Assembly (NCBI GenBank): GCA_035635515.1
Contig: DASQAY010000059.1
Span: forward strand, 1-31,116
Length of the DNA: 31,116 bases
DNA from: Candidatus Eiseniibacteriota bacterium
Lineage (GTDB): Bacteria > Chloroflexota > Dormibacteria > CF-121
Reading direction: 5' to 3'
Below are positions 7,825 to 12,737 of the stretch, one piece after another. A program made the position numbers and the translations under genes. Below the pieces are notes generated by a model. The model was not told the origin of the DNA. It saw only the letters and a program-made list of their open reading frames with translations, and did no database searches. How positions within the stretch are numbered: the stretch's first letter is position 1; every line of letters starts with the position of its first letter.

Positions 7825-8636
7825 GTCCTCGGCCCCCCTCCAGGCAATGTAAGCGACCCCCACCCGGTAATGAAGTATTGCTGACCGATGGAGAACAGGT
7901 TGCTGACCACCCAGTAGAGGGCCAGCGCCGCCGGAAAGTTAATGGCGAAGAACCCGATCATGACCGGCATGAAGAGCGTCATGGTCTGGGTGACCTGCGC
8001 CGTTGAGGGATCCTGTCCGGCCATGCCACCCGCCGGCGTCATCATCTTGGTCTGCACGAACGTCGTCAGGCCGGCCAGCACGGGCAGAATCAGCATGCCC
8101 ACGGCCACGGCCAGGGCGGCATGGCCAAACACGGATGCTGGCGTGGCTGCCACGTTCGGGATCCAGAGGAAGTGGTGGTCGTGGAGCCCCAGCGATTTCT
8201 GCGCGCCGAAAATCACCCAGTACAGGGCGATCAGGATGGGAGCCTGGACCACGGCCGGCAGGCATCCGCTCATCTGTGACAGGGGATTGATGCCGTGCTC
8301 GCGGTACAGCGCCATCGTCTCCTGGTTGAGTCGCTGGGGGTCTTTCTTGTACTTCTTGCGCAGCGCCGCCATCTGGGGCGCAATCTTCCGCTGCTCGCCC
8401 TGGATCCGGCGGGAAGTCGCCAGCTGGTACTGGAAGATGGGGGAGAGCACCACCTTGATCCCCACCGTGAGGAGGACGATGGCGATCCCAAACGGGCCGA
8501 TCGTCTGGGCCAGCGGGTTGCCCGACAGACCAGTGACGAGCCAGTGAAGCCCGGCCGACATGGGAACGCCAAAGATGGTCCACCACGCCTTCCAGACGGG
8601 GTGCCACAGCTGACCGATCGAACTATCCAGCATCAT
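7821..8636 (-). CDS. yidC: Membrane protein insertase YidC (short form, no large periplasmic domain)
   Basis: [45 protein letters not shown] and [19 protein letters not shown]. Canonical position. Confidence 0.95.
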
Positions 8637-8848
8637 GGAACCGGATCCCAGCCGCCTTCATGGAAGGGATGGCACCGGCCGATCCGCTTGACGGCCATCC
8701 ACCAACCGCGGCGCCAGCCGTACTTCTGGATGGCTTCGTACCCGTACTGTGAGCAGGTGGGCGTGAAGCGGCACCCGCTGATAAGGCCAAACAGTGGACC
8801 CAGCGTGACCCGGTAGACGCGGATCAGGACCAGCGAGGCCGCGGTCAT
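8633..8848 (-). CDS. yidD: Membrane protein insertion efficiency factor YidD
   Basis: [19 protein letters not shown]...[20 protein letters not shown] 8848 overlaps the rnpA stop. Confidence 0.95.
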
Positions 8849-9177
8849 GTCCCCACCGACTTGGACCACAGCGCCTGGAGCTCGTCGCGCAGGCGCGCCG
8901 CATCGGCATCCACCGCGCGAGCCCGTGCCACTATCACCACATCCCGTCCCGCCTGGGTGCGCTCGGCCATGGGCCGAACGAGTTCCCGCAGGCGTCGCTT
9001 GATCCGATTGCGAACTACGGCGTTCCCCAGCTTCCGGCTGACCGCGAATCCGACCCGGGGATGGCCGAGACCATTATTACCCACAAACAACGCCAGGTAA
9101 GCAGAGGAGGCGCTGGCCCGGCCGGCCAGGGCGCGATCGAACTCGCTACGCCGGACCAGTCGAGCCCGGCGCTTCAC
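8845..9177 (-). CDS. rnpA: Ribonuclease P protein component
   Basis: [25 protein letters not shown] (RNR motif) and DVVIVAR. GTG 9177 overlaps the rpmH stop. Confidence 0.95.
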
Positions 9178-9326
9178 ACATACCGGCGAGCGGTCGGGGT
9201 GAGGACTTTGCGGCCCTTGAGCCGGCGAGACTTGAGGACGTTCTGGCCGCCCGGCGTCGCCATCCGGGCCCGAAACCCGTGGACGCGGCGCCGGTGTCGT
9301 TTTTTGGGTTGGAACGTTCGCTTCAT
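9174..9326 (-). CDS. rpmH: 50S ribosomal protein L34 (missed by the ORF track)
   Basis: Manual translation gives [50 protein letters not shown]. Confidence 0.97.
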
Positions 9327-9349
9327 GGTGAGGGACCCCCGGGTCGGAC

Positions 9350-9355
9350 ATTATA
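9350..9355 (-). promoter_or_regulatory. -10 element TATAAT for the rpmH operon
   Basis: Perfect TATAAT on the minus strand, 23 nt upstream of the rpmH ATG. Confidence 0.65.
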
Positions 9356-9372
9356 CAGTCTGCCGACGGCAC
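9353..9372. repeat. Left arm of a 20-bp perfect inverted repeat (ATACAGTCTGCCGACGGCAC)
   Basis: Exact reverse complement of 11115-11134. Confidence 0.95.
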
Positions 9373-9403
9373 GATAAGCGGATCTGGGCTTCGAGTGGTC
9401 CTA

Positions 9404-9417
9404 TCTGCCGACGGCAC
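9404..9417. repeat. Third, 14-bp copy of the repeat core (TCTGCCGACGGCAC)
   Basis: Direct repeat of 9359-9372, 45 bp downstream. Confidence 0.9.
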
Positions 9418-9537
9418 CCTGCTTAGAACGACTTCCCGCATCTCCCTCTGACCGTCGCTTCCGCCTGCCCGAAACCTGTCGATTTCGCCTGCCCTCGTTC
9501 GACGCATCAGTACAACCAGGAATAGATGGGAGGGGAA

Positions 9538-11043
9538 ATGCGGTTGAAGAACGATGTGGCCGAGACGAATGAGGTGAAGTTCAGCAGGAGGAACAGCTCC
9601 CGGCCGGTCCGATCGGCCGACTCGCGTTGGCTGGCATTGATCATCCTGTGCACCGGCTTTCTGATGATCGTTCTCGACCAGACGATCGTGAACGTCGCAC
9701 TCCCCTCGATTAAGAGCGACCTCGGCTTCTCGCAGGCTGGCCTTGCCTGGGTCGTCAATGCCTACCTGATCGCCTATGGCGGTCTCTTGCTCCTGGCCGG
9801 CCGGCTGGGCGACCTGGTCGGTCGCAAGCGGATCTTCCTGATCGGGCTGGCGATGTTCACGTCGGCCTCCCTGTTGTGCGGGCTGTCGATCAGCCAGCCG
9901 ATGCTGGTGGCGGCGCGGTTTATCCAGGGGATCGGCGGCGCGGTGAGCACAGCCGTGATCCTGGGAATGGTCGTGACCATGTTTCCGGAGCCCGGGGAGC
10001 GCGCGCGGGCGATCGGCGTCTTCAGTTTTGTCGCCTCCGCGGGGGCCTCGATTGGCCTGCTGGCCGGCGGCTTCATCACCCAGGCGGTCAGCTGGCATTG
10101 GATCTTCTTCGTCAATCTGCCGATCGGGGTGGCCATCGCCGTGGTGGCATCGCGGTTGCTCGAGTCCGACCGCGGGATCGGGCTGGGCAACGGCGCCGAC
10201 GTGGTCGGCGCGCTCCTGGTCACGGCGGCGCTGATGCTGGGCGTTTATACGATTGTTGAGTCATCAACATACGGATTGGGTTCAGCGCACACACTCGGAT
10301 TCGGCGCGGTCGCGGTGGCGCTGCTCGCCGCCTTCGTCGTCCGCCAGGCGACGGCCCGCAACCCGCTGCTCCCGCTTCGCCTGTTTGGGTCCCGGAACTT
10401 CTCGGGTGCGAATGTGATCCAGGCCTCGATGGCCGCCGCCATGTTCGGGTTCTTCTTCCTTGGATCCCTCGACCTGCAGCGGGTGCTTCGCTACGGCCCG
10501 CTGGCGATCGGCCTCGCCTTCCTGCCGGTCGCCCTCGGGATGGGCGGGCTGTCGATCGGCGTCAGCGCCCGGCTGATCCTGCGATTTGGCGCCCACAGGG
10601 TGCTGCTGGCCGGGCTGGCCTTGATCACGGTGGCACTCGGACTGGTTGCGGCAGGGCCGGTCTACGACGAGTACCTGCGGGACCTGTTCGTCCCGATGGC
10701 GCTGCTCGGGATTGGCGCGGGGCTGGCCTTCCCGGCGCTGACCATCCTGGCCATGGCGCACACGACACCCAGCGACTCAGGGCTCGCCTCCGGACTGCTC
10801 AACACCACCGCGCAGGTCGGTGGCGCGCTCGGTCTCGCGGTCCTCGCCACGCTGTCGACGAGTCGGACCGGGCAATTGCTCGCGCAGGGCCAGGGGATCG
10901 CGGCCGCGCTGAGTGGGGGCTTCCACTCGGCCTGGGCGATCGGCGCCGGGATAGGACTCGCCTCGATCGTGCTGGCTGCCACCGTGCTGAAGCCCGCAGC
11001 CGAATCGGAGAGTTCGATCGCCGAAGAAGAAATTCCTGCCTAG
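9538..11043 (+). CDS. DHA2/EmrB-QacA-like 14-TM MFS efflux transporter
   Basis: Motif D1 (LDQTIVNVALPSI), WVVNAYL, motif A-like GRLGDLVGRKRIF, WHWIFFVNLPIG and ASGLLNTTAQVGGALG. Start ATG 9538 (GGAGG upstream) is preferred over 9526. Confidence 0.93.
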   Translation: MRLKNDVAETNEVKFSRRNSSRPVRSADSRWLALIILCTGFLMIVLDQTIVNVALPSIKSDLGFSQAGLAWVVNAYLIAYGGLLLLAGRLGDLVGRKRIFLIGLAMFTSASLLCGLSISQPMLVAARFIQGIGGAVSTAVILGMVVTMFPEPGERARAIGVFSFVASAGASIGLLAGGFITQAVSWHWIFFVNLPIGVAIAVVASRLLESDRGIGLGNGADVVGALLVTAALMLGVYTIVESSTYGLGSAHTLGFGAVAVALLAAFVVRQATARNPLLPLRLFGSRNFSGANVIQASMAAAMFGFFFLGSLDLQRVLRYGPLAIGLAFLPVALGMGGLSIGVSARLILRFGAHRVLLAGLALITVALGLVAAGPVYDEYLRDLFVPMALLGIGAGLAFPALTILAMAHTTPSDSGLASGLLNTTAQVGGALGLAVLATLSTSRTGQLLAQGQGIAAALSGGFHSAWAIGAGIGLASIVLAATVLKPAAESESSIAEEEIPA

Positions 11044-11114
11044 TAGGGACGAGTCGCTTTGGAATCGGCGAATCGTCGGGAGACCGGCCAGTCGAGTGAC
11101 CAGACCGGCTCGCT

Positions 11115-11134
11115 GTGCCGTCGGCAGACTGTAT
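11115..11134. repeat. Right arm of the 20-bp perfect inverted repeat (GTGCCGTCGGCAGACTGTAT)
   Basis: Exact reverse complement of 9353-9372. It ends immediately before the dnaA -35 hexamer. Confidence 0.95.
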
Positions 11135-11163
11135 TTGCACGCGCCCGTGGGCTTTGCTATGAT
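11135..11163 (+). promoter_or_regulatory. Sigma70/SigA-type dnaA promoter
   Basis: TTGCAC (11135-11140), a 17-bp spacer and TATGAT (11158-11163), with an extended -10 TG at 11155-11156. Confidence 0.75.
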
Positions 11164-11203
11164 GCCGCTGCCCTGGAGAGCTGCGGCACTCTCTAATCAC
11201 AAC

Positions 11204-11212
11204 TTATGCACA
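11204..11212 (+). promoter_or_regulatory. DnaA box TTATGCACA
   Basis: Matches TTATNCACA. Downstream of the dnaA promoter, consistent with known dnaA autoregulation. Confidence 0.8.
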
Positions 11213-11259
11213 TGGGGGTGGGGACACTCCCTTAGGGTTCTCCACTTCTGGGGAACACC

Positions 11260-11268
11260 TGTGAATAA
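11260..11268 (-). promoter_or_regulatory. DnaA box TTATTCACA (top strand TGTGAATAA)
   Basis: Matches TTATNCACA on the minus strand, in the dnaA leader. Confidence 0.8.
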
Positions 11269-11381
11269 GTCTCAATCCAGCAAGCCGCCCATGGGCCAAC
11301 GTTTCCGTCTTGCGTGGCCACTGCCCCGCCAGGTCGGGCTCCGCTCTCCACTGAAGGCGTGGACCGTTGGTGGAGGAGCGT

Positions 11382-12737
11382 ATGACCCCGGATCAGATTT
11401 GGCAAGCGGCGCAGGAAGAGCTTCGATTCCAGCTCAGTAAGCCCAGCTACGAGACCTGGCTCAAGAATGCCTCCCTGGTCGCCCAGGAGAAGAACGCCTT
11501 CCGGATCGGGGTCCCGACCAAGCTGGCCAAGGACTGGCTGGAAGACCGGTACTCCGCCGTCATCAAGGAAACCCTGTCCGCCCTGGTCAGCGGGGATGTC
11601 AGCGTGGCCTTCGAGGTGGTGGCCGGCACTCGCGAGGCCAGAAGTCACGGCGCCGACACCGCCGTGGCGGTCGCGGAGGAGCCGCCGGTCGAGGAGGTGA
11701 CGCTGGACGAGGCCTCCCAACTCAACCCCAAGTTCCAGTTCCAGACCTTCGTGGTCGGCAACAACTCGCGCTTCGCCCATGCGGCCTGCCGGGCCGTGGC
11801 GGAGTCCCCGGCCAAGGCCTACAACCCCCTCTTTCTTTACGGGGGAGTCGGGCTGGGCAAGACCCACTTGATGCACGCCATCGGCCACGCAGTCCTGGAG
11901 AAGTACAAGCGGCGCAAGGTGGCCTACGTCACCAGCGAGAAGTTCATGAACGAGATGATCACGTCGATCCAGGAAGGCAAGATGACCGACTTCCGTACCC
12001 GGTATCGGACCGTCGACGTCCTGCTGATTGACGACATCGCCTTCCTGGCTGGCAAGGACCGCACCCAGGAAGAGTTCTTCCACACCTTCAACTCGCTGCA
12101 CGAGCTGAACCGGCAAATCGTCATCTCCTCCGACCGCCCGCCCAAGGAAATCCCCACCCTGGAGGACCGCCTGCGCTCCCGGTTCGAGTGGGGCCTGATC
12201 GCGGACATCCAGCCGCCCGATTTTGAGACCCGGGTCGCCATCCTCAAATCCAAGGTGGGCCCTTACACCAAGCTAGTGCCGGAGGATGTGCTCGCCTTCA
12301 TGGCCCACAAGATTCAGCGGAACATCCGCGAACTGGAAGGGGCACTCATCCGGGTCGTCGCCCACGCCTCGCTCAACCACCAGCCGATCTCGCTGGAGCT
12401 GGCTACCAAGATCCTGCAGGACGTGATCCCCTCGGCCGAGTCCAAGACCCTCTCCATCGAGGCCATCTCGCGGACCGTGGCCAACTTCTACCACATCAGC
12501 CTCGAGGAGATGCGAGGCAAGCGCCGCGACAAGCACATCGTCTTCCCCCGCCAGGTGGCCATGTACCTGATCCGGGAGGAGACAGCGTCCTCCCTGCCGG
12601 CCATCGGCCAGGCCTTCGGCGGGCGCGACCACACAACCGTCTTGCATTCGTACGAGAAGATCTCGACCGAGGCCAAAGAGGATCCGCGGCTGCAGGCGGA
12701 CCTGCGCAAAATCCGCGAGGTCCTGTATTCCCACTGA
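11382..12737 (+). CDS. dnaA: Chromosomal replication initiator DnaA
   Basis: LNPKFQFQTFVVG, YNPLFLYGGVGLGKTHL, DVLLIDDI, LRSRFEWGL, NIRELEGAL and GGRDHTTVLHS. SD GGAGGAG precedes ATG 11382. Confidence 0.99.
   Translation: MTPDQIWQAAQEELRFQLSKPSYETWLKNASLVAQEKNAFRIGVPTKLAKDWLEDRYSAVIKETLSALVSGDVSVAFEVVAGTREARSHGADTAVAVAEEPPVEEVTLDEASQLNPKFQFQTFVVGNNSRFAHAACRAVAESPAKAYNPLFLYGGVGLGKTHLMHAIGHAVLEKYKRRKVAYVTSEKFMNEMITSIQEGKMTDFRTRYRTVDVLLIDDIAFLAGKDRTQEEFFHTFNSLHELNRQIVISSDRPPKEIPTLEDRLRSRFEWGLIADIQPPDFETRVAILKSKVGPYTKLVPEDVLAFMAHKIQRNIRELEGALIRVVAHASLNHQPISLELATKILQDVIPSAESKTLSIEAISRTVANFYHISLEEMRGKRRDKHIVFPRQVAMYLIREETASSLPAIGQAFGGRDHTTVLHSYEKISTEAKEDPRLQADLRKIREVLYSH

What the first reader, a model, noticed from the sequence alone, without database searches (positions are those of the whole stretch)
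9353..11134. Perfect 20-bp inverted repeats bracket the MFS gene and are wired into both the rpmH and dnaA promoters
Seen: ATACAGTCTGCCGACGGCAC (9353-9372) and its exact reverse complement (11115-11134) enclose a 1742-bp segment with one MFS gene. The left arm forms the whole 17-bp spacer and the first half of the rpmH -10 (TATAAT), so the rpmH -35 position lies just inside the enclosed segment. The right arm ends on the base before the dnaA -35 (TTGCAC). No recombinase or transposase is nearby. Three inferences are possible. (a) An invertible cassette flipped in trans, which would swap the rpmH -35 position (CTTATC vs CTCGCT; neither is consensus) and reverse the efflux gene. (b) Scars of the event that inserted the MFS. 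(c) A shared operator co-regulating the ribosome/insertase operon and replication initiation. I know of no described element like this at the rpmH-dnaA junction.
Basis: partly seen in the sequence, partly recalled or inferred. Interest (0 to 1): 0.8.

Follow-up and report, generated by a model that had tools for sequence, protein, structure and literature searches.

The report
Short dispersed repeat brackets relocated gene
The two perfect 20-bp inverted arms are real, but they are two copies of a small repeat scattered through this soil bacterium's genome; they mark the edges of an efflux-pump gene that moved into the gap between the rpmH and dnaA promoters, and nothing indicates a flip switch or a dedicated operator.

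Summary
ATACAGTCTGCCGACGGCAC (9353-9372) and its exact reverse complement (11115-11134) bracket a DHA2-type MFS gene and abut the rpmH -10 and the dnaA -35.

The arms are not unique. They belong to a ~35-45-nt repeat (head CAGTCTGCCGACGGCAC, tail AAGYGGGTYTGG) with 10 copies at 6 loci in this Limnocylindria MAG. The family was found only in its genus.

Sites are occupied in some sister species and empty in others, without target-site duplication. Copies form tandem arrays of variable period. One copy is a clean 41-nt insert in the centre of a ~180-bp MITE.

In 21 of 22 relatives outside the genus, rpmH and dnaA are directly adjacent. Only this genus carries the MFS gene between them, and it is a relocated resident gene that brought its own promoter.

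In both sister species the dnaA-side copy lies in direct orientation, so the perfect inverted pair is specific to this genome. It looks like an inverted duplicate of the rpmH-side unit.

Contigs from four soil samples show only the window's orientation. The cores decay at orthologous sites, which argues against a conserved operator.

Verdict: a new short repeat family at the junctions of an unusual gene relocation. Its means of spread is unknown, and interest is moderate to low.

The parts
9353..9372 (+). Left 20-mer arm (ATACAGTCTGCCGACGGCAC). It is the head of the rpmH-side repeat unit and supplies the 17-nt spacer and the first three bases of the rpmH -10 on the minus strand.
9356..9399 (+). 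Full rpmH-side repeat unit: head CAGTCTGCCGACGGCAC plus tail GATAAGCGGATCTGG.... The distal tail CTGGGCTTCGAGTGGTCC is homologous to the ancestral rpmH-dnaA spacer of genus g3.
   Evidence: 36.3 bits, E 1.5e-8; p=0.003
9404..9417 (+). Second core copy, exact for the 14-mer only, with no family tail. It lies at the left junction of the relocated MFS segment. G001 and G002 have a decayed core plus about 54 extra nt here.
11091..11134 (-). Right (dnaA-side) repeat unit in inverted orientation; 11115-11134 is the right 20-mer arm. It is specific to G000, and its tail resembles the rpmH-side unit rather than the direct copy found here in G001/G002.
   Evidence: (30.2 bits)
9350..9355 (-). rpmH -10 hexamer (TATAAT on the minus strand). 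It is ancestral and shared with genus g3 spacers.
11135..11163 (+). dnaA promoter TTGCAC-N17-TATGAT, ancestral and conserved across the family.
9526..11043 (+). DHA2 (EmrB/QacA-type) MFS efflux permease. It is a resident family gene (orthologs 63-82% identical elsewhere in relatives) relocated here in genus g1.
9476..9516 (+). Native MFS promoter/leader block carried along with the gene; it is homologous to the sequence upstream of the genus g5 orthologs.
11043..11068 (+). Native MFS 3' flank carried along with the gene; it is homologous to the sequence downstream of the genus g5 orthologs.
9174..9326 (-). rpmH (ribosomal protein L34).
11382..12737 (+). dnaA. The probable ATG at 11382 follows GGAGGAG; the longest ORF starts at TTG 11367.

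Best explanation
The two arms are members of a genus-specific, low-copy family of short interspersed repeats. The unit is about 35-45 nt: a head CAGTCTGCCGACGGCAC containing the 11-bp palindrome TGCCGACGGCA, four variable bases, then a tail AAGYGGGTYTGG. The family turns over quickly. Copies appear at or vanish from otherwise conserved 5' intergenic sites between sister species, replacing a few bases without target-site duplication. They amplify locally into tandem arrays. One copy rides inside a MITE. In the ancestor of the genus, a ~1.6-kb resident segment (a DHA2 MFS gene with its own promoter) was placed in the 40-90-bp gap between the rpmH -10 and the dnaA -35, with repeat copies at both junctions. 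In the sister species those copies are in direct orientation. In the G000 lineage the dnaA-side copy was replaced by an inverted duplicate of the rpmH-side unit, and that created the perfect 20-bp inverted pair. The arms touch both promoters because that narrow gap was the only place where an insertion could leave both essential core promoters intact. Shown here: the family, its distribution, the occupied and empty sites, the relocation, and the orientation difference between species. Inferred: that recombination at repeat copies captured the MFS segment, and that some trans-acting protein recognises the palindromic head.
For: Family and copy number: exact 14-mers on C74 (x2), C178, C329 and C371, plus a 1-mismatch pair on C232. 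nhmmer finds 10 copies at 6 loci, and the alignment shows an invariant head with a graded tail. Range: a model search gave 9, 4 and 3 hits in G000, G001 and G002, and none in 39 of 40 other family genomes. The 17-mer across 185k species gave only scattered chance hits apart from a G001 contig. Turnover: at pyrG, G000 and G001 have two copies (46-nt and 65-nt periods) and G002 has none. At the EF-G-like locus, G000 has a copy where G001 and G002 have an unrelated 12-21 nt. At the permease locus, G000 and G001 have a MITE carrying a 41-nt insert, while G002 is an empty site. The other MITE copies aligned (15) have CTCSC where C178 has the 41 nt. Relocation: rpmH and dnaA are adjacent in 21 of 22 relatives outside the genus and in 13 of 13 within the family (one is the unpublished G014). 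The MFS lies between them only in G000, G001 and G002. MFS orthologs sit elsewhere in the family, and their native flanks are homologous to window 9476-9516 and 11043-11068. Orientation: G001 and G002 carry a direct dnaA-side copy and keep the outgroup-like CGAAACTGTA-TTGCAC flank. The G000 right-arm tail matches the rpmH-side tail (p about 0.02) and not the G001/G002 tail (p about 0.4). Decay: the G001 cores read TCTGCCCGCGGCA and TCTGCCGACGCCAC.
Against: No trans-acting gene and no insertion mechanism were identified. There is no Y1 transposase or serine recombinase in this 82%-complete MAG. The head is perfectly conserved in 8 of 10 copies while the tails differ by 25-40%. That points to selection or gene conversion on the head and is equally compatible with a host protein-binding function. 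Only three genomes of the genus were available, and all are fragmented MAGs, so copy counts are lower bounds and the polarity of gains and losses is uncertain. Whether the junction copies caused the MFS relocation or arrived afterwards cannot be decided. Public runs were available only as assembled contigs, which drop rare variants.
Confidence: 0.65

Rival explanations
1. Operator reading. The palindromic core TGCCG-A-CGGCA is the binding site of a dimeric host regulator, and the copies define a small regulon of growth-related genes (rpmH operon, dnaA, pyrG, efp, an EF-G paralog, an amino-acid permease, the MFS pump). The repeat spread because it brings regulation with it.
For: Every copy lies in a 5' intergenic region, and most point toward the downstream gene about 65-120 nt before its start. 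The head is far better conserved than the tail across copies and across metagenome variants.
Against: The motif was not found in other genera, although they keep the same genes and the same dnaA promoter. Sister species lack the copies at pyrG, efp, the EF-G-like gene and the permease. In G001 both the rpmH-side and dnaA-side cores are mutated. The distance and orientation of the core relative to the dnaA -35 differ between G000 and G001/G002. The shared sequence runs asymmetrically for about 35 nt, which is more than a regulator site needs. One copy sits inside a MITE.
Confidence: 0.15
2. Recombination-site reading. The repeat is an att-like site for a site-specific recombinase. A circular intermediate carrying the MFS segment and one site recombined with a site in the rpmH-dnaA spacer, leaving direct repeats at both junctions. 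Solo copies elsewhere are remnants of similar events.
For: In G001 and G002 the inserted segment is flanked by direct core copies. The head resembles the last 20 nt of tRNA-Arg(CCT), a classic att-core source, with 17 of 18 bases matching plus one gap and the match ending at CCA. The genome encodes several tyrosine recombinases, five of them clustered on C187.
Against: The tRNA similarity is marginal (p about 0.05 for one consensus and 0.29 for the other; E 0.08-0.33 in direct comparison). The palindrome has a 1-nt centre, too short for a tyrosine-recombinase core with a 6-8-bp overlap region (my own knowledge). No recombinase lies near any copy. Tandem arrays and a 41-nt solo insert inside a MITE are not expected products of att recombination.
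Confidence: 0.12
3. Invertible-cassette reading. The 20-bp arms mediate flipping of 9373-11114, which would reverse the MFS gene and swap the sequence at the rpmH -35 position.
For: There is a perfect 20-bp inverted repeat, 35 nt at 83%. Local structural variants occur at the arms in soil sample X3.
Against: The inverted pair exists only in G000. The gene orientation is identical in three species and in the metagenome locus L288. Contigs from X1 and X2 cross each arm in one orientation, and no strand-switch joint was reported. No invertase-type recombinase was found. Neither sequence at the rpmH -35 position resembles a -35 hexamer (sequence).
Confidence: 0.03

Closest known systems
REP / BIME / REPIN elements (mobilised by RAYT Y1 transposases)
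   Same: Short (20-40 nt) extragenic repeats with a palindromic part. They are lineage-specific, occur singly, in tandem or as inverted pairs, and their distribution varies between close relatives.
   Different: There are only about 10 copies rather than hundreds. The palindrome is 11 bp with a 1-nt centre, so no stable hairpin forms. There is no conserved GTAG-type 5' tetranucleotide. No Y1/RAYT gene was found (82%-complete genome).
MIRU-type interspersed minisatellites of mycobacteria (my own knowledge, not checked in a paper here)
   Same: Units of about 40-100 bp in intergenic regions, oriented with the adjacent genes, repeated in tandem with copy number differing between close lineages, and dispersed over tens of loci or fewer.
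   Different: The tandem period is not fixed (39, 45, 46 and 65 nt). No small ORFs overlapping the neighbours' stop and start codons were demonstrated. Most loci hold a single copy.
MITEs (miniature inverted-repeat transposable elements)
   Same: A non-autonomous small repeat that is present at a site in one sister species and missing from it in another. The same genome holds a true MITE of about 180 bp with 19-bp terminal inverted repeats.
   Different: The short element has no terminal inverted repeats and no target-site duplication. It replaces a few bases instead, and at 35-45 nt it is below usual MITE size.
Invertible DNA switches (Hin/Gin/Cin, FimB/E, Bacteroides-type invertons)
   Same: Inverted repeats of about 20 bp flank a segment next to promoters.
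   Different: Only one orientation was observed. The inverted pair is not conserved in sister species. No invertase was found. The enclosed segment is a complete gene with its own promoter, not a promoter or a shufflon.

Membership tests
Invertible DNA switch | Both orientations of the enclosed segment exist in the population | tested here: not met
   Contigs from four soil runs show only the window's orientation across each arm and no strand-switch joint. Contigs drop rare variants, so a low-frequency form is not excluded.
Invertible DNA switch | Inverted repeats conserved in close relatives that carry the same cassette | tested here: not met
   In G001 and G002 the dnaA-side copy is in direct orientation. 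The metagenome locus L288 shows the same.
Invertible DNA switch | A cognate invertase (serine or tyrosine recombinase) is encoded nearby or in the genome | tested here: inconclusive
   There is no PF00239 hit. Nine PF00589 hits lie on other contigs and none on C59. The genome is 82% complete.
REP/REPIN (RAYT-associated) | A RAYT (Y1 transposase) gene in the genome | tested here: not met
   No PF01797 hit in G000; the same search found hits in 6 of 14 control genomes. The genome is 82% complete.
REP/REPIN (RAYT-associated) | An imperfect palindrome able to form a stable hairpin, present in high copy number | tested here: not met
   The palindrome is TGCCG-A-CGGCA only. There are 10 copies.
MITE | Terminal inverted repeats and a target-site duplication | tested here: not met
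   Comparisons of occupied and empty sites at the EF-G-like locus and inside the MITE show replacement of 5-21 nt, with no duplication and no terminal inverted repeats.
MIRU-like interspersed minisatellite | Intergenic tandem arrays whose copy number varies between close lineages | tested here: met
   rpmH side: a full unit plus a head-only core 45 nt downstream in G000; two full tandem units (39-nt period) plus a decayed third core in G002; one decayed core in G001. pyrG: 2, 2 and 0 copies.
MIRU-like interspersed minisatellite | A fixed unit length, with small ORFs overlapping the ends of the neighbouring genes | tested here: not met
   Periods of 39, 45, 46 and 65 nt. Two copies start right after a TGA, but no consistent overlapping ORF was seen.
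Transcription-factor operator shared by rpmH and dnaA | The site is conserved in position and sequence at orthologous promoters of relatives | tested here: not met
   It was not found in other genera, whose dnaA promoter is otherwise conserved. Position and orientation differ within the genus, and the G001 cores are mutated.
Transcription-factor operator shared by rpmH and dnaA | A protein binds the site and changes transcription | not testable with these tools
   This needs a pull-down or EMSA and reporter assays.
Integron cassette / attC | R''/R' core sites (RYYYAAC...GTTRRRY) and an IntI integrase | tested here: not met
   The unit contains no such core sites. No integrase is adjacent.

The most novel reading that the evidence does not exclude
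The ~41-nt module is a new kind of very small mobile DNA. It inserts without target-site duplication by replacing a few bases. Its palindromic head is recognised by an unidentified, possibly genus-specific protein. It can nest inside a MITE. By recombination between copies it moved a resident gene into the otherwise conserved rpmH-dnaA promoter gap at the replication origin region.
Probability: 0.2. Interest if true: 0.6.

Novelty: new variant of a known kind. Interest (0 to 1): 0.35.

Why it matters
The rpmH-dnaA junction is among the most conserved gene neighbourhoods in bacteria and lies at the replication origin region. This case shows that a 1.6-kb gene can be wedged between the two core promoters and kept through speciation. 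It also shows that what looks like promoter wiring of the flanking repeats is a by-product of where an insertion could be tolerated. Uncultured soil Limnocylindria turn out to carry a fast-evolving short repeat family and a MITE family. Both could serve as strain markers and as a natural system for studying how very short repeats spread without target-site duplication. For the scan, the lesson is that a perfect inverted pair should be checked against the rest of the genome and against sister species before it is read as a switch or an operator.

Tried and rejected
1. Rfam: a search of 8600-11500 at E<=1 found nothing.

2. RAYT/IS200-type origin: no PF01797 hit.

3. Simple in-place inversion of the G001/G002 dnaA-side copy to give the G000 arm: the short inverted motifs CAGTC...GACTG suggested it, but the tails are not significantly alike (p about 0.4). 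The arm resembles the rpmH-side unit instead.

4. Origin from an rlmN gene fragment: the metagenome hit L282 reads QSADGTRKWV inside a proteobacterial-type RlmN. G000's own RlmN reads ...DRGATVKYLF... at that position. The hit is therefore a coincidence of a conserved peptide with GC-rich codons.

5. The 41-nt insert as internal sequence of the MITE's parent IS: partial MITE hits lie mostly at contig ends, and no transposase-bearing copy could be recovered.

6. Looking for the vacated native MFS site: the genus g5 neighbourhood (a CarD-like gene upstream and a 371-aa gene downstream) is not conserved in g1, g2 or g3. G002 has no core-like motif upstream of the downstream gene.

7. tRNA-Arg(CCT) 3'-end origin of the head: 17 of 18 bases match, with one gap, and the match ends at CCA, but the significance is marginal (p 0.05 and 0.29). 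This is left open as a weak lead.

8. I did not re-test this.

9. Internal sigma-70 promoter in the unit: no consistent -35/-10 pair, and the distance to downstream promoters varies.

10. Literature: searches found nothing on this repeat or on a gene inserted at rpmH-dnaA in Chloroflexota.
Full report
OBSERVATION. The window has ATACAGTCTGCCGACGGCAC at 9353-9372 and its exact reverse complement at 11115-11134. The pair extends to 35 nt at 83% complementarity. Between the arms lies one gene, 9526-11043 (+). It matches MFS_1 and the DHA2/EmrB efflux subfamily TIGR00711. To the left is rpmH (9174-9326, minus strand), followed by yidC and jag. To the right are dnaA and dnaN. On the minus strand the left arm supplies the 17-nt spacer and the first three bases of a TATAAT. 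The right arm ends one base before TTGCAC-N17-TATGAT, the only sigma-70-like site scored in the region. The core 14-mer is enriched well beyond chance: 4 matches against 0.6 expected. A third core copy lies at 9404-9417, 45 bp after the first.

THE ARMS BELONG TO A DISPERSED REPEAT FAMILY. The window is contig C59 of a 2.62-Mb MAG that is 82% complete, in 407 contigs, with 67% GC. A sister genome's contig is titled Candidatus Limnocylindria bacterium, and the locus occurs in soil metagenomes. The exact 14-mer also occurs on C74 (twice, 46 bp apart), C178, C329 and C371, and with one mismatch twice on C232 (46 bp apart). In register, all copies share CAGTCTGCCGACGGCAC, four variable bases, then AAGYGGGTYTGG and a weaker continuation. 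nhmmer finds 10 copies at 6 loci. The head is invariant and the tail is graded. The downstream genes are unrelated to one another: CTP synthase, an APC-family permease, an EF-G paralog and EF-P. This is therefore not a duplicated gene family. Apart from the G000 right arm and the C371 copy (whose downstream gene could not be identified), the copies point toward the downstream gene. Rfam finds nothing.

TAXONOMIC RANGE. A pattern search and a sequence model built from 16 copies find the family in the three genomes of the genus: 9, 4 and 3 hits in G000, G001 and G002. There were none in 39 of 40 other genomes of the family. The one marginal hit (E 0.004) is in G043, an unpublished genome, and nothing here rests on it. 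The 17-mer in 185,579 species genomes gives only scattered single hits in unrelated phyla, as expected by chance for 596 Gb, plus a G001 contig.

TURNOVER AND BOUNDARIES. Orthologous loci differ between the sister species.
- pyrG: G000 has two units with a 46-nt period. G001 has two with a 65-nt period, and its unit includes flanking sequence. G002 has none, only 15 loosely similar bases.
- EF-G-like gene: G000 has one unit where G001 and G002 have an unrelated 12-21 nt. The flanks are conserved and there is no duplication.
- efp: all three species have a ~75-nt duplication of the leader plus the first codons. The segment between the duplicates is two units in G000, and about 130 nt and about 270 nt of other sequence in G002 and G001.
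- Permease locus: the C178 copy lies in the centre of a ~180-bp MITE-like repeat with terminal inverted repeats AGCCCGAATCCACCGG...CCGGTAGATCCGGGCT. That repeat has 53 hits in G000, 37 of them near full length. The 15 other MITE copies aligned have the pentamer CTCSC where C178 has 41 nt, AGTCTGCCGACGGCACCTGCAAGTGGGGTTGGCGTCGGTAA. This defines the module's edges. G002 has neither the MITE nor the module at this locus.
- Metagenome contigs carry the insert-bearing MITE in several different contexts.
The family therefore behaves as fast-turnover, probably mobile DNA. It lacks the hallmarks of a MITE (no terminal inverted repeats, no target-site duplication). It also lacks those of REP elements (no Y1 transposase found, low copy number, no hairpin).

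THE MFS GENE IS A RELOCATED RESIDENT GENE. In 21 of 22 relatives outside the genus, rpmH and dnaA are divergent neighbours, about 300 bp apart in most (676 bp in G033). The exception, G031, has no dnaA within 1.5 kb. One of the 21 is the unpublished G014, and the result holds without it. Within the family the count is 13 of 13. Only G000, G001 and G002 have the MFS gene between them, always in the same orientation. The gene is not foreign. Most family genomes have an ortholog at 63-82% identity elsewhere, comparable with DnaA at 80-84%. In genus g5 the ortholog's upstream and downstream flanks are homologous to window 9476-9516 and 11043-11068. So about 1.6 kb, including the gene's own promoter region, moved. 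The family's spacers show that the rpmH -10 (shared with genus g3) and the whole dnaA promoter and leader, with its DnaA boxes, are ancestral. In relatives the two hexamers are only about 40-90 bp apart. The distal tail of the rpmH-side unit (CTGGGCTTCGAGTGGTCC) matches the left part of the g3 spacer (p=0.003). The G002 dnaA-side flank (…CGAAACTGTA) matches its right part (p about 0.02). The insertion therefore split the ancestral spacer, and repeat copies lie at both junctions.

THE PERFECT INVERTED PAIR IS SPECIFIC TO G000. In G001 and G002 the dnaA-side copy reads CCAGTCTGCCGACG(G/C)CA(T/C) in direct orientation, about 40 nt upstream of the -35. It is followed by the outgroup-like CGAAACTGTA-TTGCAC. 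The metagenome locus L288 shows the same arrangement. G000 has lost CGAAA and carries a full unit in inverted orientation abutting the -35. Its tail resembles the rpmH-side unit (p about 0.02), not the G001/G002 tail (p about 0.4). It is therefore best read as an inverted duplicate of the rpmH-side unit that replaced the older copy. On the rpmH side, G002 has two full tandem units plus a decayed core. G001 has a mutated core followed by a deletion, and its dnaA-side core is also mutated.

TEST OF INVERSION. Public runs hold the locus only as assembled contigs. In the two best holders, a 2590-nt contig crosses the left arm and a 1463-nt contig crosses the right arm, each in the window's orientation with one differing base. 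No strand-switch joint between the arms is reported. Sample X3 shows local variants confined to the repeat units. No serine recombinase was found, and the tyrosine recombinases are on other contigs. Rare inversion cannot be excluded without raw reads.

INTERPRETATION. The best-supported reading is a genus-specific short interspersed repeat whose copies mark the junctions of an unusual gene relocation. The apparent wiring into both promoters reflects the narrow tolerated insertion gap. The invariant head against a drifting tail suggests that some protein recognises the head. Whether that protein serves the element (mobility, recombination) or the host (regulation) is open. Loss and decay of copies at orthologous sites, and their absence from other genera, argue against a conserved operator. 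The mechanism of spread is not known. Rejected or weak leads are listed under Tried and rejected.

COMPARISON AND NOVELTY. The family works most like REP-type or MIRU-type small intergenic repeats, but it fails defining features of REP, MITE, integron attC and invertible switches (see Membership tests). It is a new variant of a known kind of element in an uncultured lineage. The relocation into the rpmH-dnaA gap is the more unusual part. Literature searches found no description of either.

Noticed in passing
G000 contigs C70:7217-7397, C375:2280-2462, C312:1610-1791, C371:223-403 and about 50 more; in the locus set, L110 (C178:5850-6066): A MITE-like repeat of about 180 bp with ~19-bp terminal inverted repeats (AGCCCGAATCCACCGG...CCGGTAGATCCGGGCT). 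It has 53 nhmmer hits in G000 (37 near full length) and at least 20 in G002. At the permease locus it is present in G000 and G001 and absent in G002. No parent IS was recovered.
   Followed up: partly
G000:C232 ~10700-10900 (minus strand; L113), with G002:C51 and G001:C232: The 5' end of efp is an insertion hotspot in the genus. About 75 nt (the leader plus the first 12-14 codons) is duplicated, and a different insert lies between the duplicates in each species. In G000 the upstream pseudo-start opens a 54-codon ORF that runs through two repeat units and ends 16 nt before the real efp ATG.
   Followed up: partly
window 11204-11212 and 11260-11268: DnaA-box-like sequences (TTATGCACA and TGTGAATAA) lie in the dnaA leader. 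They are conserved with the whole leader across the family, which suggests autoregulation or origin function.
   Followed up: no
L123 (G008, genus g3), rpmH-dnaA spacer: Another genus has its own tandem duplication of about 60 nt in the same spacer. The gap between the rpmH and dnaA promoters therefore appears prone to duplication in the family generally.
   Followed up: no
G000:C187:274-4321 and C303:375-1861: Clusters of adjacent tyrosine-recombinase genes, five hits on C187 and two on C303. They are reminiscent of recombinase-in-trio type elements. No repeat core lies nearby.
   Followed up: no
L299-L302 (genus g5), upstream of the MFS orthologs: A conserved block of about 100 nt (…CGATGAGTTTCC…GTCTAAGGGTTCATGA…) lies between the promoter region and the MFS start. 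It is missing in genus g1 and may be a leader or regulatory RNA lost on relocation.
   Followed up: no
G000:C341:62-138 (= end of C103): The last 20 nt of tRNA-Arg(CCT) resemble the repeat head (AGTCCTGCCGAGGGCACCA against AGT-CTGCCGACGGCACCA). The significance is marginal.
   Followed up: yes
window 9454-9470 and 9478-9494: A 17-nt direct repeat (GTCGCTTCCGCCTGCCC / GTCGATTTCGCCTGCCC) lies just upstream of the MFS promoter block, near the left edge of the relocated segment.
   Followed up: no
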